Positions 36,007 through 60,461 of a DNA stretch of 64,000 nt are shown here, piece after piece (the stretch's first letter is position 1; each line of letters opens with the position of its first letter). The DNA is from an uncultured bacterium. GTDB taxonomy: Bacteria; Omnitrophota; Gorgyraeia; Duberdicusellales; CBEUCJ01. The notes under the pieces were generated by a model. That model searched no databases and was not told the DNA's origin. It saw only the letters and a program-made list of their open reading frames with translations. The stretch lies in the NCBI GenBank assembly GCA_965541615.1, contig CBEUCJ010000001.1:3754-67753 (forward strand). The letters are read 5' to 3'. Both the position numbers and the translations under genes were made by a program.

Positions 36007-36738
36007 ATGAAGGAGAAAGTTTTCCTTCATAAAACAAGAAAGCAGACTAACATTTTTATCTATCTCAAAGGCAAAAATAAGTATATTTTAAAATCAAAAC
36101 TCTTAGGAATTGATAAAGAATATAAAAATTTAAATTTTCTAAAAAAAGAGAATTTCTCTTTTATACCTAAAACTTCTCTTAAAAAAATTAAGGGAGCAAA
36201 ATTCTTAGTTCAAGATTTCATAAAATCTTCTCAATTTAAATATACTTCTGAAAAACTTTCTCTCTTAGCCAAAACAATAGGGCTCTTCATAATATTTAGG
36301 AAATATTTTAAAGAATATTTATATTTTAGAAAATGCAAAAAATTTTTAAAATCTCTTCTGCAAAAAGAGATTTTTAAAAAAAAGATAAAATACTCCTTTA
36401 TCTGTGGAAATCTTTCTAAGGATAATATCCTGTTCGAAAAAAGAAAATTATACATTATAGATTGGGAAAAAACAGAATTTGGAAACCCTGCTTACGATTT
36501 AACAAGTCTTTTTGAAAACAAAGACTTTTCTGAAATCTTATTTTTAAAATTTTATAAAAAATATGTAAATATTGATGAAGAATTCTTAGAAAGAGTAAGA
36601 TTCTATAAAATTCTACAACTTAGTGTTATTACTTCCTATTACAGATTTAACTTCTTAAATGAAATTATCCCCTTTTACTTACATGCATTTCTGATAAGAA
36701 GATTAAATAGAATTGAGAAGAATGATAGATGGAATTAA
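36007..36738 (+). CDS. APH/CotS/choline-kinase-like phosphotransferase
   Basis: LYIIDWEKTEFGNPAYDLTSLFEN matches the IDWE..G.P..DLA motif of aminoglycoside-phosphotransferase-fold kinases. Brenner-like ...SKDNILF. Confidence 0.55.
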   Translation: MKEKVFLHKTRKQTNIFIYLKGKNKYILKSKLLGIDKEYKNLNFLKKENFSFIPKTSLKKIKGAKFLVQDFIKSSQFKYTSEKLSLLAKTIGLFIIFRKYFKEYLYFRKCKKFLKSLLQKEIFKKKIKYSFICGNLSKDNILFEKRKLYIIDWEKTEFGNPAYDLTSLFENKDFSEILFLKFYKKYVNIDEEFLERVRFYKILQLSVITSYYRFNFLNEIIPFYLHAFLIRRLNRIEKNDRWN

Positions 36739-37970
36739 AACTTAAACTGAAAGACTTTTCAATAAAATATATATACTCAAAAAAAATATTCTTCTCTAAA
36801 AAAATCATAGTTGCTTTAGAAGGTTATGTTTGGAGAAGTAATTTCAAAAAACTCTCTCCTCAAGAAATAGTTAGGATTTACAAAAAAAGAAAAAAAGAGC
36901 TACTAGAGTTAGAAGGAAACTATTTAATCTGTATAGTAGACCTTAAAAATAAACTTTTAGAATTTTATTCAGATGTATGTGCAAGCATTCCTCTTTATTA
37001 TACAATAGATAAAAGTTGTTTAATTTGCTCTTCAAGAATAAAAACCCTTATCAGAAAAACAAAGACTAAAGTAAACAAAAGTGCTCTTTCTTTTTATGAT
37101 AAATTAAGCTACATACCTCCTCCTTATACTATCTTTGATAAGGTAAAAAAATTAAAACCGCATTATAACTATTTTGATTTTAAAAGATTATCCTTTATAA
37201 ATAGAGAATACAAAAGCAAAAAGATGAGTCTATCTACTTGTATAAAATCTTTACAAGAAAATATTAAAAATTATTGTAGTTATTATAAAAAAATTGGAGT
37301 TCTTGCAACAGGAGGTTTAGATTCAAGTTTTTTAATATATTTGGCAAAAGATTTTAAACCTCATCTTTTCTTTGCAGCTATTTTGGATAAATCTCTTAAA
37401 GAATATAATACTTATTCAATTAAAAGATGTAAAGCACTGGCAGATAAATTTAATTTAAAATTTGATGTTATCCCTATTAAGAAAGAAGAATATGTAAAAA
37501 GATTATTTTTAGTAGTAAAATTAATGGATGAACCAATTTATGATGAGGATTTGGCTGCTGTATATACTTTGTTTTATAAAATTAGTAAATTTTATAAAAG
37601 AGAAGGACTTATTTTAAGTGGTATGGGTAACAATGAATTGTTTGATTTTCCAAAAAGAAACTTGAAGGAGTTTTTATTCAAAAAGATACCTGAAGAAATA
37701 AATATACATAAAAAAATAGCTAAATCTTTTAATCTTGATTTTTATGCTCCTTATTTAAACAGAAATTTAATAAATTATGCGCTTACTACTGATTTTAAAA
37801 AAAGAAAAAATAAAAGATCTCTCAAAAGATTTTTAAAAATAAAGAAGATATTAAATTCTGAAATTGTAACTCAACCTTCTCAACACACACTGATTCCTCC
37901 AAATTTTATACCTTTATTGTTTAACAAAGATAGTTTTTTAAAATTTTGGAGGAGATACAATAATGCTTAA
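36729..37970 (+). CDS. Asparagine synthetase B-like PP-loop ATP pyrophosphatase lacking the N-terminal Cys nucleophile
   Basis: IGVLATGGLDSSFLIYLA is the SGGxDS PP-loop. The N-terminal ~190 aa resemble a class-II amidotransferase fold, but residue 2 is Glu (MELK...), not Cys. Confidence 0.6.
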   Translation: MELKLKLKDFSIKYIYSKKIFFSKKIIVALEGYVWRSNFKKLSPQEIVRIYKKRKKELLELEGNYLICIVDLKNKLLEFYSDVCASIPLYYTIDKSCLICSSRIKTLIRKTKTKVNKSALSFYDKLSYIPPPYTIFDKVKKLKPHYNYFDFKRLSFINREYKSKKMSLSTCIKSLQENIKNYCSYYKKIGVLATGGLDSSFLIYLAKDFKPHLFFAAILDKSLKEYNTYSIKRCKALADKFNLKFDVIPIKKEEYVKRLFLVVKLMDEPIYDEDLAAVYTLFYKISKFYKREGLILSGMGNNELFDFPKRNLKEFLFKKIPEEINIHKKIAKSFNLDFYAPYLNRNLINYALTTDFKKRKNKRSLKRFLKIKKILNSEIVTQPSQHTLIPPNFIPLLFNKDSFLKFWRRYNNA

Positions 37971-39030
37971 CAATGACAAGCTAAGAATCTTAGGGATAAT
38001 TAAGAACAAGGCTATCATAGGACCAAAGACTTTAGATATTCTGATAACTTCTCAATGCAATTTAAACTGTCTATTCTGCACAATACATTCTCCTTACAAT
38101 TCTGAAAAAATAAAAAAAGAACATCTTCCTTTTACTATCCTCAAAAAAGTAATAGATGATGCTTATAAACTGAAGGTAGAGAACATAACTTTAAGTGGAG
38201 ATGGAGAGCCTAGTTTACATCCTGAGATCTGTAAAATAATAGATTACATCAAGAAAAAAAAGTTTTTTCTTAATATAAATACAAACTTAGTATTCTCAAA
38301 AGACATCCTTAAATGTTTTCTCAAAGCAGATAAACTTTCTATAAACCTAAGTGCTTATGATGAGAAAACTTATTCTCATATTCATAGAGGGAATTCTTTA
38401 TCCTTTTCTCAACTTATTAATAACTTAAAAATAGCCTCTGAAATTTACAAAAAAAGGGGTAAACCTTCCATTGTAATAGTCTATGTAGTAAATAGCCTCA
38501 ATTATAAACACATATTAAAATTTGTGAAATTTATAAAAAACTTTCATATAAGCCACATAGACTTTAATCCTTTAGAAGTTAGACCATTTATTAAGAGATT
38601 TGCTTTATCCAAGAGAAAAATAATAAACTTTTGTAAATTAATCAATAAAGTTAAAAATGAAATTAATTTCTACAACAATCTCATTGAGCAAGAAGATCTT
38701 AGTATAAGTATAAATAAATGTTACATTCCTTTCTTTCATAGCAGAATAGAAGTAAATGGAACTGTTGCTTTTTGCTGCAAAAATGAGAATCTTATTATTG
38801 GCAACGTATATAAAGATAGCTTCTTAAACATTTGGAAATCTAAAAGAGCAGAGGAAATTAGAAAATCAGCTATATTTGAGTTTGATCTTTCTAAAAGAAA
38901 ATGGAAAGTATGTCAATCCTGTGAGAAGTATCTAAAAGAACGTAATCTCCTAATTCAAAAGGAAGTAGAATTTTTAATGAACAAATATGGAAAAAGCTTT
39001 ATTGAGATTAATTGGAATCAAAAAAGATAA
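37963..39030 (+). CDS. Radical SAM protein, family A (SPASM/twitch-like C-terminal Cys cluster)
   Basis: ILITSQCNLNCLFC CxxxCxxC at residues 31-38. C-terminal ...CYIPFF...GTVAFCCKNENLIIGN...CQSCEKY. Confidence 0.75.
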   Translation: MLNNDKLRILGIIKNKAIIGPKTLDILITSQCNLNCLFCTIHSPYNSEKIKKEHLPFTILKKVIDDAYKLKVENITLSGDGEPSLHPEICKIIDYIKKKKFFLNINTNLVFSKDILKCFLKADKLSINLSAYDEKTYSHIHRGNSLSFSQLINNLKIASEIYKKRGKPSIVIVYVVNSLNYKHILKFVKFIKNFHISHIDFNPLEVRPFIKRFALSKRKIINFCKLINKVKNEINFYNNLIEQEDLSISINKCYIPFFHSRIEVNGTVAFCCKNENLIIGNVYKDSFLNIWKSKRAEEIRKSAIFEFDLSKRKWKVCQSCEKYLKERNLLIQKEVEFLMNKYGKSFIEINWNQKR

Positions 39031-40012
39031 AGTTCTAACTGGCCCAGAAAGATTAGAAATTGAAATAATTAACTACTGCAACATAAATTGTCTTACTTGT
39101 TGGTTTTTTTCTCCCTTGGGTTCTTTTTATAAAGAAAAACCTTGGAAGATGGAACTGGAAGTATTTAAAAGAATAATTAATGAAGCTAAAATTTTAGGAG
39201 TGGAATCTATATGTATTCCTGGAATTGGAGAGCCTACCTTACATCCAAATCTTCCTGAAATGATATTAGAAACAAAAAAAGCAAGACTTCCTCTCCATAT
39301 AGCTACTAATCTGACTGTTACTTCTAAAAGAATCTTAAAATCTCTTTGCCTCTGCGATAGAATAGATATTACTTTATTAGCGCCTACAAAAGAGCTTTAT
39401 AAAGAATTGCAATCTCCTTCTTGCCCTGAATATTTTGACCAAGTATTGGAAAACATTACTTACTTAAAATCCTCTCAAAATCCTAACAAAAAACAGAAAA
39501 TATATATTATGTTTATATTAAATAAACTTAATTTTAAATATTTTAAAGATATACTAGAGTTAGCCAAAAAATTAAATTTAGATGGAATAGAAATACAACC
39601 TTTTGATACGACTCCTTTTAATAAAAATCTTTCTTTAGATTATTCAGAAATTAAAAGTTTTATTAAAGAAAAAAATAAGTTAAAGAAAAAGTATCCCTTT
39701 ATTGAAGATACTTTTTTTGAAGAATACTATAAAAATAAATTTGAGAATCAAAAACTTAAAAGATGTTATATGGGATACTTTACACTCTTAGTAGGAATAA
39801 AAGGTAAAGTAAAGGTAGGTTGCTTTTCTCCTCAATCTCCATCTGCAGGGAATATATATAAAAGAAGTCTTACTGAAATCTGGTATTCTCCTAAAGCACA
39901 AGAGATAAGAAATGAATATAAATATAACCTTGATAAAATTCATAAATCAGAATCTCATTGCCCTTTTTTGACAAGAAATCGTAAAATATCAAAAATAATT
40001 CAATTTTTTTAA
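38987..40012 (+). CDS. Radical SAM protein, family A (paralog)
   Basis: IEIINYCNINCLTC. Its N-terminal LLRLIGIKKDKVLTGPERLEIEI parallels LRILGIIKNKAIIGPKTLDILI of the upstream paralog. C-terminal Cys cluster is partly degenerate (GCFSPQ). Confidence 0.7.
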   Translation: MEKALLRLIGIKKDKVLTGPERLEIEIINYCNINCLTCWFFSPLGSFYKEKPWKMELEVFKRIINEAKILGVESICIPGIGEPTLHPNLPEMILETKKARLPLHIATNLTVTSKRILKSLCLCDRIDITLLAPTKELYKELQSPSCPEYFDQVLENITYLKSSQNPNKKQKIYIMFILNKLNFKYFKDILELAKKLNLDGIEIQPFDTTPFNKNLSLDYSEIKSFIKEKNKLKKKYPFIEDTFFEEYYKNKFENQKLKRCYMGYFTLLVGIKGKVKVGCFSPQSPSAGNIYKRSLTEIWYSPKAQEIRNEYKYNLDKIHKSESHCPFLTRNRKISKIIQFF

Positions 40013-41013
40013 GTTAATATGCTCTTTAGATGGATCTTTTTAAGGAAGTTTTGGAAGAAAATAGTCTCTTTAAAATCCAAATCTTTATCTACAAATTTTG
40101 AAATCATTTTAAATCCCCAAGATACATAATCTCTATAACTTAATGGAGTTTTTAAGGAATCAAAATATTCTCTGGTTTTTTTTATGAAAAAATAAAAAAT
40201 CTTCTCATTTACTTTAATGCGTCCATTATCGAGCTTAAGAAAAGACCATTTTTTTCGCATATTTTCTGACAAACACAAAAAGACATCTCCAAAAAAGACA
40301 TAAAAAGGAGGATGTAAACTTAAATCTAATAAATTTTTCTTTAGACAAGGAAAATCTTCTTCCATAAAGATATGTTTAAGAAACTTCTTATTCTTAACGA
40401 TCTTGATATATTCTTTTTTAAAACATTCTATGCTCTTAACATCCCACTCTATTAAGGCAGAGGGGGTAACATCTATATTCCTTAAACCTAAATTAATCAA
40501 AAAAGAAAAGTTCTCACTAAGCCTACAGCTTTCTTGAGGATGGACGGTCATTGTGCAAGAGATATCGATTCCTTTTTCTTTGCACTTCTTAATATTTTTT
40601 ATTAACTTCTCAAAGGAATCTCTATCTATTCCTCTCCTATGTTTAGAAGTAGTAAAAAAATCTCCATCTATTCCAATCTCTAAAGAGATTTTATTATCTT
40701 TCAAAAAGGAAATTATTTCCTCATTTAAAAGTAAACCATTAGTTTGAATTCCTATATTAATCTTAGGAAATTTTTTCTTTATATAATTTACTGTCTTTTT
40801 CACTAAAGGGAAAAAGAGAAATGGTTCTCCTCCACTAATCTCAAAATTACAAGGAGTAGCTAAATTAGTTTTTAAAAAGTCTATAAATCTTTTAATAGCA
40901 GAAAAATCTAAAGTTCTGCCTCTTTTGTCCTTAAAATAGCAATAATCACAATTCAAATTACATTTCTCAGTTATGTATATAAAAACATTATAAACAAACA
41001 GGTTATCGAACAT
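40009..41013 (-). CDS. Radical SAM protein, family B (no obvious C-terminal SPASM cluster)
   Basis: YITEKCNLNCDYCYF...ISGGEPFL. Paralogous to 51939..52988, which has ITEKCNLNCDYCFF...ISGGEPLL. Confidence 0.75.
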   Translation of the reverse strand: MFDNLFVYNVFIYITEKCNLNCDYCYFKDKRGRTLDFSAIKRFIDFLKTNLATPCNFEISGGEPFLFFPLVKKTVNYIKKKFPKINIGIQTNGLLLNEEIISFLKDNKISLEIGIDGDFFTTSKHRRGIDRDSFEKLIKNIKKCKEKGIDISCTMTVHPQESCRLSENFSFLINLGLRNIDVTPSALIEWDVKSIECFKKEYIKIVKNKKFLKHIFMEEDFPCLKKNLLDLSLHPPFYVFFGDVFLCLSENMRKKWSFLKLDNGRIKVNEKIFYFFIKKTREYFDSLKTPLSYRDYVSWGFKMISKFVDKDLDFKETIFFQNFLKKIHLKSILT

Positions 41014-42184
41014 TCTTTCTCAAATCAATAATGTGTCTAAATTTTCCTGTAGAAGTTTTTGGCACAGAACCTTTATAAATATTAAATTCAAATATGTCCA
41101 AAATCCTCAGTCTTTCAGAAATGGCTTTTTTTATCTTTTCAATTTTATCTTTATCAGAAGGAGAAAGATTTATCAAAACCTTATCTTTATAAGTGTAAGG
41201 ATTTTTATTTATCAGAAGGAAAAAATGAGGATGTTTTAAAATGCCTTGAATAGTCTCTATTATCTCCTGTTTAGAAAAAACTTCTCCATCAAGAAGAATA
41301 GAATCATCTGCTCTTCCTAAAACTTTTATATATTTTCTCCTACCCCTTTTTATTATCTCCACTATATCTCCTAAAATATATCTTATAAAAGGCATACAGA
41401 AATTTTCTAAATCAGTAATAACTATTTTCCCCTTTCCTAATTCAGAGACACTTCCATCGTCTTTTAAAATTTCTATATACAAACCATCTTCAAACAGTCT
41501 CATATATTCATCTTCAGGATCATCAGAAATAGCAAATCCTGAGAATTCCATAGATCCGTAATTATTAAATATCTCTACACCTCCTATTTTACATATAATC
41601 TCTTTAAAATCATTGGATAAATACTCACCAGTAACGATGCATTTTTTTATACTATGTTTTTTACCAATTCTGCTAAATACCTCATATATCTCATTCACAT
41701 AACCTTCAATAACTGTAGGATGTAAATCCTGAATAACTTTAATAACAAAATGTAAATGTTGTCTTGTTTTAATCGAACCTACAGGAATTCGACAAACACC
41801 TATCTTCCCTAAAGCCTCATCGATTATTCGTGCTGCTCCACTTATAGAATAAGATAACAAATTTAAGAAACGATCTTTTTTACTGAGACCGGCAGTCTTG
41901 TATATTTTTACTTGTCTTTTTATGTGTGCATCAAAACTTTTTTTGTTTCGGAGAATGAAAAAAGAATTAGTTGTACTCCCTGAAGTCATAGTAACAAAGT
42001 ATTCTTTCCCACTTCTTAAAAATTGAGAAATATCATTAAAATCCTCTCGTTTTAAAAAAGGAATATCTTCGATTTTTTTTATTTTAGAAACATCTACCCC
42101 TTTTTTTTGATGATAAAACTCTCTAAAATTTTTAAGTAGAGTTTTAATCTTTGAAAAAATTTTACTATTGTAATCATAGGACAT
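41003..42184 (-). CDS. PaaK/CapK/F390-synthetase-like adenylate-forming ligase
   Basis: VTMTSGSTTNSFFILRNKKSF carries the T-S-G-S-T P-loop of acyl-adenylating enzymes. The layout is the ~390-aa short-form adenylating ligase. Confidence 0.65.
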   Translation of the reverse strand: MSYDYNSKIFSKIKTLLKNFREFYHQKKGVDVSKIKKIEDIPFLKREDFNDISQFLRSGKEYFVTMTSGSTTNSFFILRNKKSFDAHIKRQVKIYKTAGLSKKDRFLNLLSYSISGAARIIDEALGKIGVCRIPVGSIKTRQHLHFVIKVIQDLHPTVIEGYVNEIYEVFSRIGKKHSIKKCIVTGEYLSNDFKEIICKIGGVEIFNNYGSMEFSGFAISDDPEDEYMRLFEDGLYIEILKDDGSVSELGKGKIVITDLENFCMPFIRYILGDIVEIIKRGRRKYIKVLGRADDSILLDGEVFSKQEIIETIQGILKHPHFFLLINKNPYTYKDKVLINLSPSDKDKIEKIKKAISERLRILDIFEFNIYKGSVPKTSTGKFRHIIDLRKNVR

Positions 42185-52988: not shown

Positions 52989-53055
52989 TTAAAATTAAAA
53001 AATACTCTTGCAGAATAATTCAAAATGTTATAATAAAATATCATCTTCATCTTGA

Positions 53056-53919
53056 ATGCTGTGGTTTTACATTTTAATCATTTTTACAGGCATTTTAACT
53101 ACAATCACAGATATAACCGAGCATAAAATAAAGAATAAACATCTTCTTTTTATAAGTCTTGTAGGAATCTTTTTATATATTATACTCTTCATAAAAAAGG
53201 AATTAAAGTTTTCCCTCAATATGTTACTCAATCCATTTGTAAGTTTAATCATTGGATTTATTCTTTACAAAAATAACTTGTGGCGTGCAGGTGATGGAAA
53301 ATTATTTTTTATTTACTCTCTGCTCTTACCTTTAAACAAGTATTCCTCAATACTTCCTTTTTCTTGTTTTACTTTATTTTTAAACACCTTCTTAATAGCT
53401 TTTTTATTTATATTACCAAGTGTTATTAAAAATTTTTTAAAAAACAAAGAAATTTTTAAAAAATTAATCTCCAAAAAAACTTTTTTATATTTTGGAAGAA
53501 TCTTTTTAATAACCTTTTGCCTTTCTTGGATGATAAGACCTCTCTTATATAAACTCCATTTAGAAAAAAATATTTTTTTTAATTTTATTCTCTTGTATAC
53601 AGGATACTCTTTTATTCGTTCTTCTTTTAAGAAAATTAAAAATAAATTTATTAGTTTTTACATCATACTTATAGCTTTAATCTTAAGATACCTTCTTTTC
53701 CCAGAGAGTCTTTCTATTACAAGCATAATAAATTATTTAAAATATTTATTTTCTTACTCTTTGATCATTTATCTTTTAAAGGATAAATCCATTTTAGACA
53801 AAACTTTTCAAAAAAGAGTCCCTTTTGCACCTTTTATGTTCATAGGTGCTTTACTTACTAATACAGATTTTTTGAAATGGGTCTTAAAAACTTTAGCTTA
53901 CCTGAAACGGTTAATTTAA
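53056..53919 (+). CDS. A24 family (prepilin peptidase/TadV/FlaK-like) membrane aspartyl protease
   Basis: Polytopic membrane protein. First Asp block TITDITEHKIKNKHLLF. Second block NNLWRAGDGKLFFIYSLLLPL matches the G-x-G-D-x-K-L active-site motif. No pilin gene is nearby. Confidence 0.5.
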   Translation: MLWFYILIIFTGILTTITDITEHKIKNKHLLFISLVGIFLYIILFIKKELKFSLNMLLNPFVSLIIGFILYKNNLWRAGDGKLFFIYSLLLPLNKYSSILPFSCFTLFLNTFLIAFLFILPSVIKNFLKNKEIFKKLISKKTFLYFGRIFLITFCLSWMIRPLLYKLHLEKNIFFNFILLYTGYSFIRSSFKKIKNKFISFYIILIALILRYLLFPESLSITSIINYLKYLFSYSLIIYLLKDKSILDKTFQKRVPFAPFMFIGALLTNTDFLKWVLKTLAYLKRLI

Positions 53920-55205
53920 ATAAGATTCTAATTTCTATAGAAAATTACATAGGAAAAGTTAAAAAAGAAGATTTTATTATACACATTCACATAGATGAAA
54001 AGAAAATTACTCTATCAGCAATAAAACTATTATATCTACTCTTAAACAATTATGAAGATAATTATTTTATTATCATTAAAAACCTTCCTTACTGTCTTAT
54101 GCCAGATGCTTTAGAACACATTGTTTACGAAAAGATTCCGAAGAATAAATATCATTATGATGAAATTTGTGAAAAATGTTACTTAAAGAACATTTGTCCT
54201 GGATGGAATGAATCTTTAAACATTGAGAGGAATAAAGTAAACTTACCTAAAGACATTCCTAAAGAAATAGTGATGGAAATAACTACTAAATGTAATCTTA
54301 ATTGTAGGTGTTGTAATTTAGATAAAAGCAACCCTATAAATGCTGAATTTAAAATAGTAAAAAATATAATAGATGAGTGCAAAACTTTAGGAATAAGAGC
54401 TGTAAGATTTACAGGAGGAGAACCTTTATTAAATCCTGATTTAGAAAAGATGCTCTCTTATGCAAAAAGAAATGGATTTTATGTATTACTCAATACTAAT
54501 GCTACTCTTTTAAATTCTCATCTATTAAAGATTTTAGAAAAAAATGTAGATAATGTCCTAATTTCTTTGCAAGGTTACAATCAAACTTCAGAAAGAAGAT
54601 TAACAAATTCTCACATAGATTTCAACAAAAAGCTTACTAACGTAATTAAATTGAATTTTAGAATCCCTATAGTAAGAATTGGTAGTGTAATATCTAAAAC
54701 TTTAATTGAAAATTTTAATAGATATTATTATCTATTAAAAAAGATTGGGATAAAACATTGGGAATTATACAGGCCTATTCTCAAAGATGATGAAGAATTT
54801 GAAATATCTAAAAAGGATTTGATAAAAATCATGTGTCTCTTAATTGAAATAAAAAAAACAGGAATGAAAACAAAAATTGCAAATCCTCTTCCTTTCTGTA
54901 TAGTAAAAAACAAAAAAATTTCTTTAATGAGCCTTTTGGGAGGAATAGCTGATGATGGACACTCAAGAATTGTGTGGGATGCAAAAGGATATTTTAAGCC
55001 AAGTTATTTTATAAATGTGTATTTAGGAAAAACTATTGAGGAATCTTGGCAGGCTCCTTTTTTAAAAAAGTTAAGATCCTTAGACTATCTACCTCAAAAA
55101 TGTAAAGAGTGTTATTATTTGAAATGGTGTAAAGGTGGAAGTAGAGCTTTAGCAAAAATTTTCAATAAGAATTATTTTTCTTCTGATCCTCTTTTTAAAA
55201 CTTAA
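53877..55205 (+). CDS. Radical SAM/SPASM-type protein with ~115-aa Cys-containing N-terminal extension
   Basis: MEITTKCNLNCRCCNLDKS CxxxCxxC at ~residue 130, TGGEPLLNPD, C-terminal CKECYYLKWCKGGS. N-terminal CEKCYLKNICPGW could bind metal or serve as a recognition domain. Confidence 0.7.
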   Translation: MGLKNFSLPETVNLNKILISIENYIGKVKKEDFIIHIHIDEKKITLSAIKLLYLLLNNYEDNYFIIIKNLPYCLMPDALEHIVYEKIPKNKYHYDEICEKCYLKNICPGWNESLNIERNKVNLPKDIPKEIVMEITTKCNLNCRCCNLDKSNPINAEFKIVKNIIDECKTLGIRAVRFTGGEPLLNPDLEKMLSYAKRNGFYVLLNTNATLLNSHLLKILEKNVDNVLISLQGYNQTSERRLTNSHIDFNKKLTNVIKLNFRIPIVRIGSVISKTLIENFNRYYYLLKKIGIKHWELYRPILKDDEEFEISKKDLIKIMCLLIEIKKTGMKTKIANPLPFCIVKNKKISLMSLLGGIADDGHSRIVWDAKGYFKPSYFINVYLGKTIEESWQAPFLKKLRSLDYLPQKCKECYYLKWCKGGSRALAKIFNKNYFSSDPLFKT

Positions 55206-55207
55206 TC

Positions 55208-56020
55208 TTACCAAATTTCTCCAAGAGTCTTTATATAAGAATTTAAACAAGCTTTCTTAATCTTTGAATTTTCTATAAGCTCACAAAGATTCTTATCTTT
55301 TTCTTTTCTTGAAAGATTAAAAATAGCTATATCTCTTGTTATTTTTTCTATCTTTTCTTTTGGATCTGAAGAAAATATTATCTCACAGGCAAACTGCTTA
55401 CATAAAGGAAGTTCTTCTCCTTTCAAATATCTTTCACAAGCTAAACAACTATATTTTTTAAAACCCCAAAATACAGCTATCATTTCTATAATATCATACC
55501 TATCTACACCGCTATTCTCAAAAGGAGAAAAAGAAATTGCTTTCAAAACTAAATCTGCATCACCATTAAAAACTCCTTCACAAAAAATTTTCTCCCAACC
55601 ACTTAAAATACTACAATTACCATTCTTAAAAGCAATGCAAACTTTTTCTGGATCCTTAAAAACTTCTTCATTTTCTTCAACAAAATCTCTGCATCTTCCT
55701 TCCCCTAAGTACCTCATAGATAACATACCATTCGCTGAGCTTCTACAATCTTCTGTCTCACATACATTTAAATCATCTTCTCTTACAGCAATATATTTTT
55801 GAAAGCACTCATAATATTTACTATTCTTTATAAATTCCATCTCTTTCTTTATTTTCTCTTCTATATCTTCTTTTTCTTCAGTTTTTTCTACAGAAAGTTT
55901 TTTAGGTAAAAAAATTACAACTTTTTTTTGCTGAGAAAAAGTCAATTGGAATATAAAAATAAAGGAAAAAACAAACAAGATTTTCTTCAACATTGATTTT
56001 AAAAATTTAATAAGAAGCAT
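55208..56020 (-). CDS. Cys-rich secreted/lipoprotein-like hypothetical protein
   Basis: N-terminal signal/TM (ILFVFSFIFIFQLTFSQQ); 14 Cys in the mature region. Overlaps the upstream small ORF by 14 bp. Confidence 0.5.
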   Translation of the reverse strand: MLLIKFLKSMLKKILFVFSFIFIFQLTFSQQKKVVIFLPKKLSVEKTEEKEDIEEKIKKEMEFIKNSKYYECFQKYIAVREDDLNVCETEDCRSSANGMLSMRYLGEGRCRDFVEENEEVFKDPEKVCIAFKNGNCSILSGWEKIFCEGVFNGDADLVLKAISFSPFENSGVDRYDIIEMIAVFWGFKKYSCLACERYLKGEELPLCKQFACEIIFSSDPKEKIEKITRDIAIFNLSRKEKDKNLCELIENSKIKKACLNSYIKTLGEIW

Positions 56021-56300
56021 GATTAGTATGAATAGAAGAATTTGTATGTGTAAAATGCACTTTTACGCAACAACCAGATGCAGAAGTACTACATTGAGGA
56101 GAGCAAACATTTTTATGACTTGAGTGCGAAGTATGACCTGCAAAAGAATGAGTTAAAGAACTCATTATTCCTAATGCAGAAATCGTTCCCAAACCTATTT
56201 TTAAAATATTTTCTTTAGAAACAAAACCTTTCTCATCTTTTATAAAATCTTTAATGTCTTTTTTAAGATTATTAAATTTATTTTTTTTACTTTTTTTCAT
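56007..56300 (-). CDS. Small precursor-like protein with charged leader, hydrophobic segment and a His/Ser/Thr/Cys-rich C-terminal tail (His-Xaa-Ser-like)
   Basis: Strong SD AAGGAGGTG 6 nt upstream of the ATG. Sequence: MKKSKKNKFNNLKKDIKDFIKDEKGFVSKENILKIGLGTISALGIMSSL-THSFAGHTSHSSHKNVCSPQCSTSASGCCVKVHFTHTNSSIHTNHASY. It starts 4 bp downstream of a SPASM maturase-type rSAM. Confidence 0.6.
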   Translation of the reverse strand: MKKSKKNKFNNLKKDIKDFIKDEKGFVSKENILKIGLGTISALGIMSSLTHSFAGHTSHSSHKNVCSPQCSTSASGCCVKVHFTHTNSSIHTNHASY

Positions 56301-56304
56301 TTTT

Positions 56305-57690
56305 TCACCTCCTTCTTATCCATGATTTAAATATTTTAACATTTTCTTCGTCTTCTAAAATTTTTTCAAAAATACACCTAAATTGGTAATTATAAATTTT
56401 GTAAATAAAAGAACACCAAATTTTAGGAACAAAATTTCTCTGTGTATAATAGTTTAACACAGGACACGTTCCTATCCAAGGCAAAAATGCAGAATTATAA
56501 TCCCACATGTTTACTACAGAAGTATACAAAAGATAAAGGAGCCTTTCTTTTTTAATTATATCCTCATAATTTTCTTTTAAAATATTTCCTAACTTAAATG
56601 TATCTTCATCTACCATCCTTGCTTCATCACAGGGAAAACAACTCCCATCAGGCATATAAGTTATCACATTTCTTCCTGCTCCACATGGATTCATCAAATC
56701 TACATACCCAGCATCCATTTTATTAAAAACTTTCTCTAAAATTACTCTTGCTATTCTTTCTTTTATATAAATCCCTTTTTTATTCAATTCCAAAATGTAA
56801 TCTAATGATTTTTTATAAAACTCACCAAACTCTTCAGCAGTGTATCCTAAATTCAACCAATTTCTGCATGCTACTCCTAATCTATTTACAGGTCTAAGAG
56901 AAATCTCCTCTTGCCCCCATCTTACATATTCATCTATTATCTCCTTATAATACTTTAAAGAATGTTTAGTAATTGTAGGTAATAAATGCACTTTCATCTT
57001 AAATTTCTTTCTAATTTTCTCAATCTTTTTTGCCACAATATCATAACTTCCTTTCCCATTTTTAAATATTCTATTTTTATCATGAAGAAACTTAGGACCA
57101 TCTAAAGAAGTACATATTTCAACATTAAATTTTTTTAAAAATTCCATTTTCTCTTCTGTAAGTAGTGTTAGGTTACTTACTAAAGCGATCCTTAAATTTA
57201 CCTCTTTTCTTTGAAACTTCTTAGCATTTTCTACTAAAAAAGAAACTATCTCCCAGTTAAGTAAAGGTTCTCCTCCTTGAAATTCTAAAGTTACATACGG
57301 ATTTCTCACATCAAAAATGAATTTTAAAACTCGTGTTGCAACCTCATAATTCATATTCTCTTTTTTAAAAGACCTTGTTTGACAGTATCTGCAACTTAAA
57401 TTACAAGCTGTGGTTACTACTGCAATATGAAGAGAAGTATCACTAAAAAGATGCCCATTCAGATTTCTATATTCATTAATCAAATTTTTCAAATTATTCT
57501 CATCTACAATTAAACCTTTTTCATATAATCTTTTAAATAAGGGAGTATTTTCTTTGACTTTTAATGAATTTAATTCTTTAAATTCTTCTTTTGTTAAAAA
57601 ATCCCAACCTCCTAAAAAATTGGATACAAGATATCTATCCTTAATAATAGTTGAATTAAAAGGTAAAATTGCAAATCTTCTATTCTCCAT
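56305..57690 (-). CDS. Radical SAM/SPASM domain peptide-maturase-type enzyme with N-terminal ~85-aa extension
   Basis: VVTTACNLSCRYCQ CxxxCxxC at ~residue 95 and ...FQGGEPLL. SPASM signature CGAGRNVITYMPDGSCFPCDE. The N-terminal extension is RRE/PqqD-like in length. Confidence 0.75.
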   Translation of the reverse strand: MENRRFAILPFNSTIIKDRYLVSNFLGGWDFLTKEEFKELNSLKVKENTPLFKRLYEKGLIVDENNLKNLINEYRNLNGHLFSDTSLHIAVVTTACNLSCRYCQTRSFKKENMNYEVATRVLKFIFDVRNPYVTLEFQGGEPLLNWEIVSFLVENAKKFQRKEVNLRIALVSNLTLLTEEKMEFLKKFNVEICTSLDGPKFLHDKNRIFKNGKGSYDIVAKKIEKIRKKFKMKVHLLPTITKHSLKYYKEIIDEYVRWGQEEISLRPVNRLGVACRNWLNLGYTAEEFGEFYKKSLDYILELNKKGIYIKERIARVILEKVFNKMDAGYVDLMNPCGAGRNVITYMPDGSCFPCDEARMVDEDTFKLGNILKENYEDIIKKERLLYLLYTSVVNMWDYNSAFLPWIGTCPVLNYYTQRNFVPKIWCSFIYKIYNYQFRCIFEKILEDEENVKIFKSWIRRR

Positions 57691-57711
57691 AACTTTAATT
57701 TATCACAGGTT

Positions 57712-58097
57712 TAAACTCATCTATTCCATCAATATCATGCAAAGCAGGAGCAAATTCATTCATTCCTGCTAACAGTATTTTTTGCAAAAATCGAGTGAAG
57801 AAAACATCCTTCCATTAGTTTGAATCTGTATGAGAAGATAACCTAACTTTTTAGCAAATCTAACTATTTCAAAAACATCTTTTCTAATAGTCACTTCTCC
57901 TTCTGTAAATACTACTTCTCTGCACCTTTTAAATAAGCTTCTTCTAATTCTTGTTTTATTTCTTGCGTTGTCTTATCAGGATATATACGTTTATCTGCAA
58001 CTACACAAAATTTACAATCATTTATACAAGAATGACCTACAAAGAGGACTAATCTTTTAACTTGAGGGGGGATTTTATAAAGAAGTTTTTGTTTCAC
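57712..58097 (-). pseudogene. Frameshifted, truncated radical SAM gene remnant
   Basis: Frame 1 (58097->57912): MKQKLLYKIPPQVKRLVLFVGHSCINDCKFC...YLKGAEK*. A second frame continues VFTEGEVTIRKDVFEIVRFAKKLGYLLIQIQTNGRMF...KKYC*. A third gives ILLAGMNEFAPALHDIDGIDEFKPVIN*. Together ~128 aa of an rSAM N-terminal half split over three frames. Confidence 0.6.
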
Positions 58098-58344
58098 TCC
58101 TCAAAAGGTAAATTAAATAATTTAAAAAATCAAAACAATTTTGTAGATTAAACTTATTCAATTTTAAAAAATAATATTTATTTTTTTCTTTAATAGAAAG
58201 AATAAACTCTGCATTCTCTTTTTGTAATCTTTCAAGTATCTCTTTTGAATAAAGATCTCTATGCAATTTTAAAAAAATATTGTTTCTGTTTATTTTTAAA
58301 AAAGGCAAGTTACTTTTTTGCAGATTTCTTTTCCTCTTCTTCAA
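58075..58344 (-). CDS. Hypothetical small protein (89 aa)
   Basis: ORF overlapping both neighbours; K-rich; no motif. May be a spurious overlap. Confidence 0.25.
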   Translation of the reverse strand: MKKRKRNLQKSNLPFLKINRNNIFLKLHRDLYSKEILERLQKENAEFILSIKEKNKYYFLKLNKFNLQNCFDFLNYLIYLLRSETKTSL

Positions 58345-58705
58345 GTTCTTTAATCAACTCTTCTATTTCTCTTTCTTCAGCTTCTTGCACCAAAGAAGGA
58401 GCAGCTGAAAATAAAGCTCTTTGTAGTAAAGTCTTAACTACCTCACCATTAACTTTAAGACTTTCAAAATAATGGGCGTAGTTAATTAATTCATTATAAA
58501 ATTCCATTCCTAATTTATCTAAATTTTCTTTTTTGTCTTTAGGAAACAGCCAAATTTCTACAGTTTTATTCTTTTTTTTATCCAAATAAATATACGCTCT
58601 ATCTAAAAATACATAACTAGCAGAATATACAGTTGAAAGAGGATAAACATCTAAATCTGTAGTCAATCTTACCCAATTTTTCCCTTTTTTTATAACCTTC
58701 TCCAT
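58310..58705 (-). CDS. Hypothetical small protein (131 aa) with acidic C-terminal tail
   Basis: MEKVIKKGKNWVRLTTDLDVYPLSTVYSASYVFLDRAYIYLD... followed by a polyglutamate-rich tail. Tightly coupled to the next gene (stop/start adjacent). Confidence 0.45.
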   Translation of the reverse strand: MEKVIKKGKNWVRLTTDLDVYPLSTVYSASYVFLDRAYIYLDKKKNKTVEIWLFPKDKKENLDKLGMEFYNELINYAHYFESLKVNGEVVKTLLQRALFSAAPSLVQEAEEREIEELIKELEEEEKKSAKK

Positions 58706-59158
58706 CTAATCCCAACAATTGCAGAACCAAATTTCTTTAACTTTCAAGACTCCAGGATTACCAGTTGATGTTGTTACTCTAGTGTGATTACTTTTTAATA
58801 CTGTTTTTCCTCCAGTGTAAAGATAGATATCTTTACCTCCATATGTAAAGATCGTAAAATCATCTCCATCTCCATAAGTAGGCGAATTTCTATTCCACAT
58901 TATTCCTGCAATATAATTACCACTAGCATCAGCTGCTCCTACACTTGGACCTTTTGAAATTCTTAAGTAATGGTAAGAACTTCCCTCAAAATTTAATTGC
59001 AAATATTTCATTCTTGTAATATAGCTTTCTAACTCTTTATATACTCCGTAAGGAGCAGGATAATAAGTAGTAATTGTGATCTTCTCTTGAGAATAAACTA
59101 CTATACTTCCACACAATAATACAACACTTATCCCTAAAATAATTATTTTTCTTATCAT
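58706..59158 (-). CDS. Secreted hypothetical protein (signal peptide; C-terminal CNCW)
   Basis: N-term MIRKIIILGISVVLLCGSIVVYSQE is signal-peptide-like. Gly/Thr/Tyr-rich beta-type sequence. Confidence 0.45.
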   Translation of the reverse strand: MIRKIIILGISVVLLCGSIVVYSQEKITITTYYPAPYGVYKELESYITRMKYLQLNFEGSSYHYLRISKGPSVGAADASGNYIAGIMWNRNSPTYGDGDDFTIFTYGGKDIYLYTGGKTVLKSNHTRVTTSTGNPGVLKVKEIWFCNCWD

Positions 59159-60452: not shown

Positions 60453-60461
60453 CAGAGAGCT

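What the first reader, a model, noticed from the sequence alone, without database searches (positions are those of the whole stretch)
36007..59158. ~23-kb accessory island saturated with radical SAM enzymes plus aminosugar-tailoring genes
Eleven rSAM genes lie in 23 kb: ten intact and one decayed, each with a CxxxCxxC motif. Interleaved are two DegT-type aminotransferases and two paralogous PseG/SpsG-like GT-B enzymes. A Cys-less AsnB-like PP-loop amidotransferase, a PaaK/CapK-like adenylating ligase and an APH-fold kinase are also present. So are an A24 membrane protease, a Cys-rich secreted protein and a His/Ser/Cys-rich small ORF. The flanks are ordinary housekeeping genes: nfeD/SPFH on the left, rpmH-yidC-parAB on the right. 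The DegT, PseG-like, AsnB-like (PseA/WbuX-like amidino-forming) and CapK-like ligase set is the toolkit of nonulosonic-acid or amidino-aminosugar glycan pathways. Here the oxidoreductive steps appear replaced or expanded by rSAM chemistry (compare BtrN, DesII, AprD4). One SPASM peptide-maturase operon is appended. I know of no characterized cluster with this gene content. It may be an anaerobe-specific rSAM-driven pathway for a heavily modified sugar, glycolipid or glycosylated peptide.
Basis: partly seen in the sequence, partly recalled or inferred. Interest (0 to 1): 0.9.

Follow-up and report, generated by a model that had tools for sequence, protein, structure and literature searches.

The report
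Radical-SAM-rich His-Xaa-Ser peptide glycosylation cluster
A 24-kb gene cluster in an uncultured Omnitrophota bacterium appears to be one machine that cuts, chemically cross-links and decorates with amino sugars a small histidine/serine-rich exported peptide; it is an undescribed, greatly expanded relative of the HXS system that blocks phage DNA entry in E. coli.

Summary
The gene inventory is real: ten intact radical SAM (rSAM) genes and one decayed one, two DegT aminotransferases, two GT28-type glycosyltransferases, an AsnB-like protein, a PaaK-like ligase, an APH-fold protein, an A24 peptidase, a Cys-rich secreted protein and a His/Ser-rich peptide. The interpretation needs turning round. 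The right end is a His-Xaa-Ser (Hxs) peptide-maturation system: HxsD, a small positionally conserved ORF, an HxsC pseudogene, HxsB and an HxsA3-type precursor. It is not appended. In about 30 related metagenomic and Omnitrophota loci, the Hxs genes recur with the 442-aa rSAM, the A24 peptidase, GT28 and a DUF2334 deacetylase, in shuffled orders. Relatives also fuse rSAM, glycosyltransferase and deacetylase domains into single proteins. The Omnitrophota loci found through the ligase gene add DegT, ligase, AsnB-like and extra rSAM families. No nonulosonic-acid, NDP-sugar or 2-deoxystreptamine core enzyme is present. None of the nine non-Hxs rSAMs reaches any curated family cut-off. Composition matches the flanks and no mobility marks were found. 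Best reading (about 0.55): an expanded HxsA3 system making an rSAM-modified, aminoglycosylated periplasmic peptide. Its biological role is unproven; anti-phage defence is argued by analogy only. This is a new variant of a known kind. I found no description of it in the searchable literature.

The parts
36007..36738 (+). APH/fructosamine-kinase-fold protein with a degenerate catalytic loop (CGN in place of HxD)
   Evidence: Pfam PF03881 26.3 bits and PF01636 24.2 bits, just above the cut-offs. Alignment with orthologues shows that only L001 keeps HxD. Homologues lie in L003 and L005 by BLAST; APH-annotated genes lie in L001 and L087.
36729..37970 (+). AsnB-like PP-loop adenylating amidotransferase without the N-terminal catalytic Cys
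   Evidence: PF00733 E 5e-12; TIGR01536 91 bits, below the cut-off. The TGGLDS motif is visible in the sequence. Present in most ligase-anchored loci.
37963..39030 (+). rSAM with partial SPASM/twitch domain, S family, member 1
   Evidence: PF04055 and PF13186. 32-38% identical to the other three S-family members. Best NCBIfam hit 92 bits against a cut-off of 380.
38987..40012 (+). rSAM-SPASM, S family, member 2, overlapping the preceding gene
40009..41013 (-). rSAM, P family (PapB/anSME-like core, no SPASM domain); next to the ligase in 15 of 17 ligase-anchored loci
   Evidence: PF04055 81 bits; NF047865 125 bits against a cut-off of 340. Ligase and P-family rSAM are adjacent in L001, L003, L005-L011, L013, L015, L016 and L086-L088; L012 and L014 end at or just after the ligase.
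41003..42184 (-). PaaK-type adenylate-forming ligase of a rare Omnitrophota-centred family
   Evidence: TIGR02155 E 3e-20. Profile against PDB PaaK E 3e-37. Only 28 proteins with E below 1e-30 among 5.8 billion sequences; the named ones are Candidatus Omnitrophica.
42174..43145 (-). rSAM, T family (distant PTO1314/HxsC-like), member 1
   Evidence: PF04055. 34% identical to 49915-50865.
43129..44244 (-). DegT/DnrJ/EryC1 PLP aminotransferase 1
   Evidence: PF01041 E 9e-69. Below every NCBIfam equivalog cut-off. The SFSYAK lysine is present.
44261..45112 (-). Hypothetical 283-aa protein of unknown fold
   Evidence: No Pfam, NCBIfam or PADLOC hit. Clear homologue only in L003/L004. The AF2 single-sequence model failed, pLDDT 36.
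45181..46383 (-). GT-B glycosyltransferase a (GT28 C-terminal domain, MurG/MJ1255-like)
   Evidence: PF04101 E 1e-10; TIGR00661 E 6e-10. No PDB sequence hit.
46407..47615 (-). GT-B glycosyltransferase b; the paralogue that most often sits next to the Hxs core in relatives
   Evidence: PF04101 E 1e-10. The GT28b-type gene is adjacent to the rS9/HxsA3 module in L005, L092-L094 and L096-L098. A GT28-rSAM fusion occurs in L109.
47815..48870 (+). rSAM-SPASM, S family, member 3
48867..49946 (+). rSAM-SPASM, S family, member 4
   Evidence: Best PDB sequence hit E 5e-8, to an uncharacterised 'radical SAM enzyme' entry.
49915..50865 (+). rSAM, T family, member 2
   Evidence: TIGR03961 87 bits against a cut-off of 306; TIGR03977 (HxsC) 83 bits against 268.
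50855..51955 (-). DegT aminotransferase 2, overlapping the upstream P-family rSAM gene by 17 nt
   Evidence: PF01041 E 2e-77. The unit P-family rSAM then DegT2 recurs in L003, L008, L010, L011, L015 and L016.
51939..52988 (-). rSAM, P family, member 2, the partner of DegT2
53056..53919 (+). A24-family (prepilin-peptidase-type) intramembrane aspartyl peptidase without a methyltransferase domain
   Evidence: PF01478 24.6 bits against a cut-off of 26.5. D19 and W76-x-x-G-D80-x-K-L are invariant in 13 orthologues of 24-56% identity.
53877..55205 (+). 442-aa rSAM ('rS9') with an N-terminal Cys-rich domain and a C-terminal CxxCx5C motif; overlaps the A24 gene; the signature partner of HxsB/HxsD/HxsA3
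   Evidence: Alignment A2. 12 of 13 related metagenome loci of at least 6 kb carry HxsB within 10 kb. The family is rare: 180 representatives with E of 1e-30 or better among 1.84 billion.
55208..56020 (-). Secreted Cys-rich (13 Cys) all-alpha protein, usually adjacent to the precursor gene
   Evidence: Signal peptide visible in the sequence. Homologues lie beside HxsA3 in L005, L008, L089, L091 and L093. AF2 pLDDT 83.7; no PDB fold match with E below 0.5.
56007..56300 (-). HxsA3-type precursor peptide: Lys-rich leader, DEKG|FVSKE motif, hydrophobic segment, His/Ser/Thr/Cys-rich tail ending in Tyr
   Evidence: NF038309 49.4 bits against a cut-off of 65. Family of 17 sequences: C-terminal Tyr in 17 of 17; Gly followed by an acidic residue at +5 in 13 of 17; invariant H-x-N.
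56305..57690 (-). HxsB, rSAM/SPASM maturase of the His-Xaa-Ser system
   Evidence: TIGR03978 398 bits, above the cut-off of 370.
57700..58067 (-). HxsC/HxsC4-like rSAM pseudogene: one frameshift and about 190 codons deleted (borders approximate)
   Evidence: tblastn with the intact L091 gene: residues 2-52 and 34-98 align in two different frames. The L091 gene scores 160 bits on NF038332 and 102 bits on TIGR03977. The translation shows stop codons.
58075..58344 (-). Positionally conserved small ORF (89 aa); its shape loosely recalls HxsD (inference only)
   Evidence: ORFs of 72-89 aa occupy the same position in L087, L091, L093 and L101, with a shared pattern but low identity. No BLAST-level similarity among them, so this assignment is tentative.
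58310..58705 (-). HxsD, small partner protein of the Hxs maturases
   Evidence: TIGR03976 44 bits against a cut-off of 50. The L087 homologue carries PF27806 HxsD. 41-61% identical orthologues sit next to HxsB in L091, L093, L097, L098 and L101.
58706..59158 (-). Secreted 150-aa protein with a YPAPYGVY motif; first gene of the Hxs operon
   Evidence: Homologue in L091 after HxsD, and a protein with a similar motif in L101. The best sigma-70-like match of the region (11 of 12) lies just upstream at 59195-59167; the scan as a whole is not above chance.
59263..59988 (+).
   Evidence: PF10096 and PF01522. Lies inside the cluster in L009-L011, L015, L086, L092-L094 and L101. Fused to an rSAM domain in L087. 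A Polysacc_deac_1 domain is fused to rSAM and GT2 in L109.

Best explanation
The stretch 36007-59988 is one integrated system. It is an expanded HxsA3-type His-Xaa-Ser peptide-maturation cluster in an Omnitrophota chromosome.

Shown:
- An Hxs core is present: HxsD, a small positionally conserved ORF, a decayed HxsC, HxsB and an HxsA3 precursor.
- The core is genetically tied, across many divergent loci, to a 442-aa rSAM ('rS9'), an A24 aspartyl peptidase, a Cys-rich secreted protein, GT-B glycosyltransferases and a deacetylase-like protein.
- Relatives fuse rSAM, glycosyltransferase and deacetylase domains into single polypeptides.
- The Omnitrophota loci found through the ligase gene add DegT aminotransferases, a PaaK-like ligase, an AsnB-like protein, an APH-fold protein and three further rSAM families.

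Inferred mechanism:
1. The 97-aa precursor is recognised through its conserved leader motif (F-x-K-D-E-x-G-F-V-S-K-E), probably by HxsD.
2. HxsB and rS9 install radical-mediated modifications in its His/Ser/Thr/Cys-rich tail. The invariant C-terminal Tyr may be one target. HxsC is dispensable here.
3. The GT28 enzymes attach a hexosamine-type sugar.
4. The DUF2334 protein N-deacetylates it.
5. Pairs of rSAM and DegT oxidise a hydroxyl and transaminate the resulting ketone, following BtrN/BtrS logic. This would explain the absence of SDR dehydratases.
6. The PaaK-like ligase and the AsnB-like protein acylate or amidate the product.
7. The peptide is processed and exported to the periplasm or cell surface. 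The candidate cleavage sites are the prepilin-like G25|F26 site (A24 peptidase) and a small-x-small site just before the His-rich tail (signal peptidase I).

Role (weakest step, by analogy only): a polycationic, His-rich aminoglycopeptide in the envelope that hinders phage DNA entry, as E. coli HxsA does. Metal binding is the alternative.
For: Hxs identity:
- HxsB scores 398 bits against a cut-off of 370.
- HxsA3 and HxsD are the best hits but fall just below their cut-offs.
- Relatives reach HxsA4 above the cut-off and carry PF27806 HxsD.

Linkage:
- 12 of 13 rS9-anchored metagenome loci of at least 6 kb carry HxsB within 10 kb; most also carry HxsD and an HxsA3/A4 peptide.
- 9 of the 13 carry GT28.
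- 7 of 17 ligase-anchored loci show Hxs components even within the 10-kb flank limit.
- Gene orders differ between loci and the genes are interleaved: GT28b lies between rS9 and HxsA3, the ligase lies next to the Cys-rich protein in L012 and L093, and DUF2334 lies next to rS9.

Fusions:
- L109 encodes rSAM-SPASM + GT2 + deacetylase in one 869-aa protein. Its gene starts 9 nt after the precursor gene.
- L109 encodes a GT28 + rSAM fusion.
- L087 encodes a DUF2334 + rSAM fusion.
- L001 encodes a GT4 + rSAM fusion.

Other points:
- Precursor family conservation is documented.
- The A24 catalytic Asp pair is invariant.
- No NDP-sugar enzymes are present.
- The island is compact: gene ends overlap and three short divergent promoter regions separate the strand blocks.
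- E. coli HXS biology comes from PMC13128918.
Against: - Nothing here shows the peptide is glycosylated. The sugar enzymes could act on another acceptor.
- DegT enzymes are known only with NDP-keto-sugars or inososes. None is known on peptide-bound sugars.
- HxsA3, HxsD and A24 all score below their curated cut-offs.
- HxsA3 lacks the peptidoglycan-binding domain of E. coli HxsA, and the gene order differs.
- The segment after the putative G|F site is polar for six residues, unlike true type IV pilins.
- L001, L006 and L007 carry the ligase and rSAM set with no Hxs gene within 10 kb. The flank limit may hide them.
- The APH-fold protein may be catalytically dead.
- PADLOC gives no defence-specific hit.
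Confidence: 0.55

Rival explanations
1. Two independent neighbours. An ordinary Hxs (defence-type) peptide system happens to lie next to a separate rSAM-driven aminosugar or glycan pathway for LPS, capsule, S-layer or glycolipid. This is essentially the first reader's main reading.
For: - DegT, GT-B, deacetylase, AsnB-like and CapK/PaaK-like ligase genes are typical of surface-glycan clusters (established knowledge of those families).
- L001, L006 and L007 show the ligase and rSAM set without Hxs genes within 10 kb.
- L086 carries a PMT_2/ArnT-like GT-C, which fits lipid-linked glycan transfer.
Against: - Linkage of rS9, A24, GT28 and DUF2334 with HxsB/D/A3 recurs in loci of GC 0.23-0.57 with rearranged and interleaved orders.
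- rSAM + GT + deacetylase fusions lie directly downstream of the precursor gene.
- No flippase, polymerase, initiating phosphoglycosyltransferase, nucleotidyltransferase or dehydratase occurs in any locus whose genes carry Pfam annotation.
Confidence: 0.15
2. A peptide-derived small molecule. HxsA3 is a sacrificial scaffold, as in mycofactocin, PQQ or pearlins. A few C-terminal residues around the invariant Tyr are modified by rSAM enzymes, glycosylated and aminated, then excised. The product would be a redox cofactor or an aminoglycoside-like antibiotic. An APH-fold protein such as the one here could then serve in self-resistance or as a pathway kinase.
For: - C-terminal Tyr is invariant in 17 of 17 precursors.
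- The parts list (rSAM/SPASM enzyme, small chaperone-like partner, peptidase, glycosyltransferase) parallels MftA/B/C/E/F (my own knowledge of the mycofactocin pathway).
- The combination of DegT, rSAM, GT, deacetylase and an APH fold recalls 2-deoxystreptamine aminoglycoside logic (my own knowledge of the butirosin pathway).
Against: - Tails vary greatly in length and include up to about 20 tandem H-G-S repeats. That fits a polymeric binding peptide better than a cofactor precursor.
- The hydrophobic export segment and the membrane peptidase point to an exported peptide.
- The APH catalytic loop is degenerate.
- There is no 2-deoxy-scyllo-inosose synthase and no MftD/MftE-like enzyme.
Confidence: 0.15
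3. A glycosylated type IV pilin-like or pseudopilin subunit. HxsA3 is cleaved at G|F by the A24 peptidase and assembled into a short filament. The sugar genes make a pilin O-glycan.
For: - Gly at -1 and Glu or Asp at +5 in 13 of 17 precursors, followed by a hydrophobic helix.
- The A24 peptidase with its invariant Asp pair is gene-coupled to rS9.
- L097 and L098 place T2SSF and two T2SSE ATPases directly downstream of the Hxs module.
Against: - Pilus assembly genes occur only in those two closely related loci and not in the window.
- Residues +1 to +6 are polar.
- The mature part is very short and has no pilin globular domain.
- A small-x-small cleavage site follows the hydrophobic segment.
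Confidence: 0.07

Closest known systems
HXS anti-phage system of E. coli/Klebsiella (HxsA-HxsB-HxsC-HxsD; TIGR03976-03979; Li et al., Nat Commun 2026, PMC13128918)
   Same: - HxsB orthologue above the curated cut-off.
- HxsD-like small partner.
- A second, HxsC-type rSAM, here a pseudogene.
- A precursor with His-Xaa-Ser/Thr motifs and an export signal.
- In E. coli, maturation in the cytoplasm is followed by N-terminal processing and export.
   Different: - The precursor is the small HxsA3 type: 97 aa, no peptidoglycan-binding domain, a long charged leader and an invariant C-terminal Tyr.
- The order is D-(small ORF)-C*-B-A rather than D-B-C-A.
- HxsC is decayed or absent.
- The system gains a 442-aa rSAM, an A24 peptidase, a Cys-rich secreted protein, glycosyltransferases, a deacetylase, DegT, a ligase, an AsnB-like protein and seven or more further rSAMs.
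- The host is Omnitrophota, whereas 99.7% of described HXS systems are in Pseudomonadota.
- An anti-phage role is untested here.
Mycofactocin pathway (MftA-F)
   Same: - Small precursor ending in Tyr.
- rSAM/SPASM maturase.
- Small partner protein.
- Peptidase.
- Glycosyltransferase decorating a peptide-derived product.
   Different: - No sequence membership: TIGR03962 gives only weak hits.
- No MftD- or MftE-type enzymes.
- The precursor has an export segment and long His/Ser repeats.
- The glycosyltransferase is GT28-like, not GT2 (MftF).
- Many more rSAM enzymes are present.
2-Deoxystreptamine aminoglycoside logic (butirosin BtrN rSAM dehydrogenase + BtrS DegT-family aminotransferase + BtrM glycosyltransferase + BtrD deacetylase)
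   Same: The enzyme classes match: twitch/SPASM-type rSAM next to a DegT aminotransferase, a glycosyltransferase, an N-deacetylase and an APH-fold protein. The logic 'oxidise a hydroxyl by rSAM chemistry, then transaminate' would explain the lack of SDR enzymes.
   Different: - No 2-deoxy-scyllo-inosose synthase.
- No rSAM here reaches any BtrN-like or other curated family score.
- The context is a ribosomal peptide system.
- The resemblance is recalled from knowledge of the pathway and was not tested by sequence here.
Pseudaminic/legionaminic-acid and acetamidino-sugar pathways (PseB/C/H/G/I/F, PseA)
   Same: A DegT-family aminotransferase with PseC/LegC as distant hits, a weak PseG-like GT-B hit and an AsnB-like Cys-less amidotransferase.
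   Different: - No PseB/PglF dehydratase, PseH acetyltransferase, PseI/NeuB synthase or PseF CMP-transferase.
- The DegT scores are far below the PseC cut-off (153-190 bits against 423).
- The PseG hit has E 3e-4.

Membership tests
His-Xaa-Ser (HXS/Hxs) system | HxsB rSAM/SPASM maturase (TIGR03978) | tested here: met
   398.3 bits against a cut-off of 370, full-length match.
His-Xaa-Ser (HXS/Hxs) system | HxsC second rSAM (TIGR03977 or NF038332 HxsC4), intact | tested here: not met
   Only a frameshifted, internally deleted remnant remains at about 57700-58067. The intact counterpart in L091 scores 160 bits on HxsC4 and 102 bits on HxsC, below both cut-offs. Many relatives lack the gene.
His-Xaa-Ser (HXS/Hxs) system | HxsD small partner (TIGR03976 / PF27806) | tested here: inconclusive
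   44 bits against a cut-off of 50, and it is the only hit. The L087 orthologue is annotated PF27806 HxsD.
His-Xaa-Ser (HXS/Hxs) system | Precursor with His-Xaa-Ser repeats (HxsA, A2, A3 or A4 models) | tested here: inconclusive
   NF038309 HxsA3 49.4 bits against a cut-off of 65. The window peptide has four H-x-S/T motifs. The relative in L102 reaches HxsA4 at 73.9 bits against a cut-off of 55.
His-Xaa-Ser (HXS/Hxs) system | [quoted passage not shown] | tested here: not met
   The 97-aa peptide contains no such domain. The phenotype is not testable with these tools. PADLOC gives no specific hit.
Nonulosonic-acid (Pse/Leg) or acetamidino-sugar pathway | NeuB/PseI-type synthase, CMP-transferase, PseB/PglF 4,6-dehydratase, PseH acetyltransferase | tested here: not met
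   None was found among the Pfam or NCBIfam hits of the island genes or of the 24 flank ORFs scanned with Pfam.
Nonulosonic-acid (Pse/Leg) or acetamidino-sugar pathway | PseC/LegC-equivalog aminotransferase and PseG hydrolase | tested here: not met
   PseC model 153 and 190 bits against a cut-off of 423.5. PseG model 20.6 bits against 153.6.
2-Deoxystreptamine aminoglycoside cluster | 2-deoxy-scyllo-inosose synthase (DHQS-like) and a BtrN-type rSAM dehydrogenase | tested here: not met
   There is no DHQS-like gene. The rSAMs match only generic twitch/SPASM models below the cut-off (NF033640 48-70 bits against 170).
Type IV pilin / class III signal peptide substrate | Gly at -1, hydrophobic residue at +1, Glu at +5, a hydrophobic helix starting at +1, and a cognate A24 peptidase | tested here: inconclusive
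   G25|F26 with E30 is present and is conserved in 13 of 17 relatives. An A24 peptidase with an invariant Asp pair is encoded in the cluster. However, residues +2 to +6 are polar, and no assembly ATPase or platform protein is encoded in the window.
Mycofactocin-type peptide-derived cofactor | MftC-family rSAM, MftB, MftD, MftE, MftF | tested here: not met
   TIGR03962 gives only 25-51 bits against a cut-off of 265. No MftD/E/F families were hit.
   For the nine non-Hxs rSAMs, the best hits are 57-108 bits against cut-offs of 170-650. PDB sequence hits are no better than E 2e-13.

The most novel reading that the evidence does not exclude
The cluster makes a new class of natural product. It would be a ribosomal His/Ser-rich peptide carrying rSAM-built cross-links and O-linked, aminoglycoside-like polyamino sugars. 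The sugars would be assembled on the peptide by rSAM dehydrogenase/DegT pairs, without any NDP-keto-sugar intermediate. The product would be displayed in the periplasm as a polycationic nucleic-acid trap against phage DNA entry. That would join two known anti-phage principles: the HxsA effector (PMC13128918) and aminoglycosides (PMC9239200). A still bolder variant is that the anSME-like P-family rSAMs oxidise peptide Ser residues to formylglycine and DegT converts these to 2,3-diaminopropionate residues.
Probability: 0.15. Interest if true: 0.9.

Novelty: new variant of a known kind. Interest (0 to 1): 0.68.

Why it matters
- The chemistry of His-Xaa-Ser systems is unsolved. Even in E. coli only a +8 Da change is known.
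- This variant couples the Hxs core to glycosyltransferases, a deacetylase, aminotransferases, a ligase and at least nine unclassified rSAM enzymes. It therefore points to a much richer modification repertoire and offers many new rSAM activities to characterise.
- If the sugars are built on the peptide by rSAM/DegT pairs, that would be an oxygen- and NAD-independent route to amino sugars, and a new hybrid class of ribosomal peptide (RiPP) and glycan.
- It also gives a concrete, testable envelope or defence function in Omnitrophota, a phylum with almost no experimental biology.

Tried and rejected
- **Source contig.** Exact look-up failed for DegT2 and for the 100%-identical Cys-rich protein P0033. 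The cluster table shows only an unnamed 339-kb NCBI contig.
- **Host taxon.** I took this instead from EF-G, whose named best hits are all Candidatus Omnitrophota/Omnitrophica.
- **PDB sequence searches.** The S, P and T rSAM families, GT28a, DUF2334 and the AsnB-like protein gave nothing closer than generic rSAM cores.
- **PADLOC.** Only generic viperin-like rSAM similarity.
- **Structure of the 283-aa hypothetical protein.** The single-sequence AF2 model was unusable, pLDDT 36.
- **Structure of the Cys-rich protein.** The model was confident (pLDDT 84) but had no PDB fold match. The AFDB library was unavailable.
- **Mobile-element signs.** Rfam gave no hit, there is no tRNA gene, and the repeats found only reflect paralogous rSAM motifs.
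- **Promoter and terminator scan.** Not above shuffled expectation.
- **Pilus link.** Pilus genes occur only in L097 and L098, so I demoted the pilin reading.
- **L001 284-aa protein.** It is not a true homologue of the 283-aa protein.
- **Literature.** Searches for Omnitrophota + radical SAM, HxsA/HxsB, prepilin peptidase + rSAM + precursor, and DegT + RiPP found no description of this cluster.

Full report
**1. What is there**

The window has about 27% G+C. Between 36007 and 59988 lie 25 tightly packed intact ORFs and one pseudogene, in seven alternating strand blocks. Many gene ends overlap, and no intergenic gap exceeds 200 bp.

- Ten intact radical SAM (rSAM) proteins, all above the PF04055 gathering score and all with CxxxCxxC.
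- Two DegT aminotransferases.
- Two GT28-C-domain glycosyltransferases of the GT-B fold.
- An AsnB-like PP-loop protein without Cys2.
- A PaaK-type ligase.
- An APH-fold protein.
- An A24 peptidase.
- A secreted protein with 13 Cys.
- A 97-aa His/Ser/Cys-rich peptide.

The eleventh, decayed rSAM is real. It aligns in two frames to an intact HxsC/HxsC4-like gene that sits at the same position in locus L091, and it lacks about 190 codons.

rSAM genes make up 10 of 25 island ORFs, against 1 of 24 scanned ORFs elsewhere in the window (p = 0.005).

The flanks are housekeeping genes: nfeD/SPFH on the left and rpmH-yidD-yidC-parA-parB on the right.

All named best EF-G hits are Candidatus Omnitrophota, so the host is an Omnitrophota bacterium.

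**2. Internal structure**

All-against-all BLAST sorts the rSAMs into families:
- **S family**, four members: rSAM with a partial SPASM domain, arranged as two tandem pairs.
- **P family**, two members: PapB/anSME-like core without SPASM.
- **T family**, two members: distantly PTO1314/HxsC-like.
- **rS9**: the unique 442-aa rSAM.
- **HxsB**.

DegT and GT28 are also ancient paralogue pairs (41% and 32% identity). Only HxsB reaches a curated family cut-off. The other nine score 57-108 bits against cut-offs of 170-650, and PDB sequence searches give only generic rSAM cores.

**3. The right end is a His-Xaa-Ser system**
- 56305-57690 is HxsB (398 bits against a cut-off of 370).
- 58310-58705 is HxsD-like (44 against 50).
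- 56007-56300 is HxsA3-like (49 against 65).
It has positional counterparts in four other loci.

HXS systems were recently shown to be an anti-phage defence in E. coli. There, HxsB, HxsC and HxsD mature HxsA, which involves N-terminal processing and a +8 Da change in an SHRSS motif. The product acts in the periplasm against phage DNA entry. 99.7% of known HXS systems are in Pseudomonadota, mostly in the order D-B-C-A (PMC13128918).

**4. Comparative genomics turns the interpretation round**

*Ligase-anchored loci.* The PaaK-like ligase has only 28 relatives with E below 1e-30 among 5.8 billion proteins, and the named ones are Omnitrophica. I collected 17 loci containing it, from metagenomes and from GTDB genomes. 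BLAST annotation against the window proteins shows a conserved cluster with recurrent units:
- ligase followed by a P-family rSAM, in 15 of the 17 loci; the other two contigs end at or just after the ligase;
- P-family rSAM followed by DegT, often with a T-family rSAM next;
- A24 paired with rS9;
- GT28, the AsnB-like protein, S-family rSAMs, and often DUF2334.

Seven of these loci also show HxsB, HxsA3 or the Cys-rich protein within the 10-kb flank limit.

*rS9-anchored loci.* I then anchored a metagenome scan on rS9. Of 13 orthologue-bearing loci of at least 6 kb, 12 carry HxsB within 10 kb. Most also carry HxsD and an HxsA3/A4 peptide, and nine carry GT28. Their G+C ranges from 0.23 to 0.57 and the gene orders differ.

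A recurrent minimal module is HxsD-HxsB-HxsA3-(secreted protein)-GT28-rS9-A24, as in L096-L098. L093 packs A24, rS9, DUF2334, two T-family rSAMs, DegT, GT28, the ligase, a Cys-rich protein, HxsA3, HxsB, a small ORF and HxsD into about 11 kb.

The rS9 family is rare: 180 representatives at E of 1e-30 or better among 1.84 billion.

**5. Fusion proteins**

In L109 the precursor gene is followed after 9 nt by a single 869-aa protein combining an rS9-like rSAM/SPASM domain, a GT2 glycosyltransferase and a polysaccharide deacetylase. The next gene fuses GT28 with an rSAM/SPASM domain.

L087 fuses DUF2334 to an rSAM domain, and L001 fuses GT4 to an rSAM domain. Other relatives chain three or four rSAM domains, with or without a B12-binding domain, in one polypeptide.

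Together with the linkage data, these fusions are the main evidence that the rSAM, glycosyltransferase and deacetylase functions belong to the same pathway as the Hxs peptide.

**6. The precursor and its processing**

Seventeen HxsA3/A4-like peptides share these features:
- a Lys-rich leader;
- the motif F-[LI]-K-D-E-x-G-[FHLYK]-[VIM]-S-K-E, with Gly followed by an acidic residue at +5 in 13 of 17;
- a hydrophobic segment of about 18 residues;
- a small-x-small site;
- an invariant H-x-N;
- a His/Ser/Thr-rich tail of very variable length, with up to about 20 H-G-S repeats;
- an invariant C-terminal Tyr (17 of 17).

The cluster's A24 peptidase keeps D19 and G-D80-x-K-L in all 13 orthologues aligned, which is the prepilin-peptidase catalytic pair.

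Two processing sites are therefore plausible: G25|F26 by the A24 peptidase, and a signal-peptidase-I-type site just before the His-rich tail. Which is used is unknown. The segment after G|F is more polar than in true pilins. Pilus assembly genes accompany the module only in L097 and L098, so I rank the pilin reading low.

**7. What the sugar-type genes imply**

No nucleotidyltransferase, SDR 4,6-dehydratase or epimerase, NeuB/PseI synthase, CMP-transferase, flippase or polymerase is found. This holds for the island, for the rest of the window, and for the precomputed Pfam annotations of the related loci. The nonulosonic-acid reading is therefore not supported, and there is no 2-deoxy-scyllo-inosose synthase.

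The conserved coupling of rSAM genes with DegT, and of GT with deacetylase, fits a particular logic. It runs: transfer a HexNAc, deacetylate it, oxidise a hydroxyl by rSAM chemistry, transaminate, then acylate or amidate. This is known from mycothiol, bacillithiol and neamine/butirosin biosynthesis. That comparison rests on my own knowledge of those pathways and was not tested here. Whether this chemistry happens on the peptide is inference.

The APH-fold protein has CGN in place of the catalytic HxD motif, and L003 has HKG. It may not be a kinase.

**8. Is it an island?**
- GC3 is 0.202 in the island and 0.200 in the flanks.
- RSCU correlates at r = 0.98, and tetranucleotide usage at r = 0.98.
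- There is no tRNA gene, Rfam hit or flanking repeat, and no integrase among the Pfam hits in or next to the island.
- In other genomes the cluster has different neighbours, for example PGK-TIM-SecG in L001.

So the cluster is patchily distributed but fully ameliorated in composition. It is not recent foreign DNA.

**9. Unknown members**

The Cys-rich protein models confidently as an all-alpha protein (pLDDT 84) but has no PDB fold match. The 283-aa protein could not be modelled.

**10. Verdict**
- The best explanation (about 0.55) is one integrated, expanded HxsA3-type system. It would produce an rSAM-modified, aminoglycosylated, exported His-rich peptide.
- Its biological role is conjecture. 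Phage-DNA barrier is argued by analogy with HXS, and by the known anti-phage effect of aminoglycosides (PMC9239200). Metal binding is the alternative.
- I found no description of this architecture in the searchable literature.
- NCBIfam curators have named the peptide and rSAM variants (HxsA3, HxsA4, HxsC4). The finding is therefore a new variant of a known kind rather than categorically new.

Noticed in passing
window 2503-4514 (-): An SPL-like radical SAM protein (PF20903, 79 bits) overlaps by 4 nt the end of a ParB_N-domain protein gene upstream of it. This could be a DNA-modification or defence pair unrelated to the island.
   Followed up: no
window 60462-60846: rpmH (60462-60602) is followed directly by yidD (60589-60816) and yidC. 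No rnpA-sized ORF lies between them.
   Followed up: no
window 59000-61000: Cumulative GC skew reaches its minimum here, next to rpmH-yidC-parAB. A 470-bp non-coding stretch lies at 59989-60461. The cluster probably abuts the replication origin.
   Followed up: no
L097 16110-20935 and L098 16946-20894: A T2SS-F platform protein, two T2SS-E ATPases and an MshEN-domain protein lie directly downstream of the Hxs module. They occur only in these two closely related loci.
   Followed up: partly
L102 6703-10056; L109 12915-15413; proteins P0201, P0236: Giant fusion proteins carry three or four radical SAM domains, sometimes with a B12-binding domain, inside Hxs-type loci.
   Followed up: partly
L003 6672-7106; L005 9600-10028; L086 560-928: A free-standing tRNA-Thr_ED (archaeal ThrRS editing-domain-like) protein sits just upstream of the ligase, or of the 283-aa protein homologue in L003. 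U32 'peptidase' genes, ApbA-type reductases and B12-rSAMs also occur in related clusters but not in the window.
   Followed up: no
window 36007-36738: The catalytic loop of the APH-fold protein reads CGN instead of HxD, and the L003 orthologue has HKG. Only the distant L001 homologue keeps H-A-D. The protein may be a pseudokinase.
   Followed up: partly
window 30152-31486 (-) and 22185-24215 (-): Two unusual domain combinations occur in the left flank: CxxCxxCC with the MprF C-terminal (LPG_synthase_C) domain, and PilZ with a prenyltransferase-like toroid.
   Followed up: no
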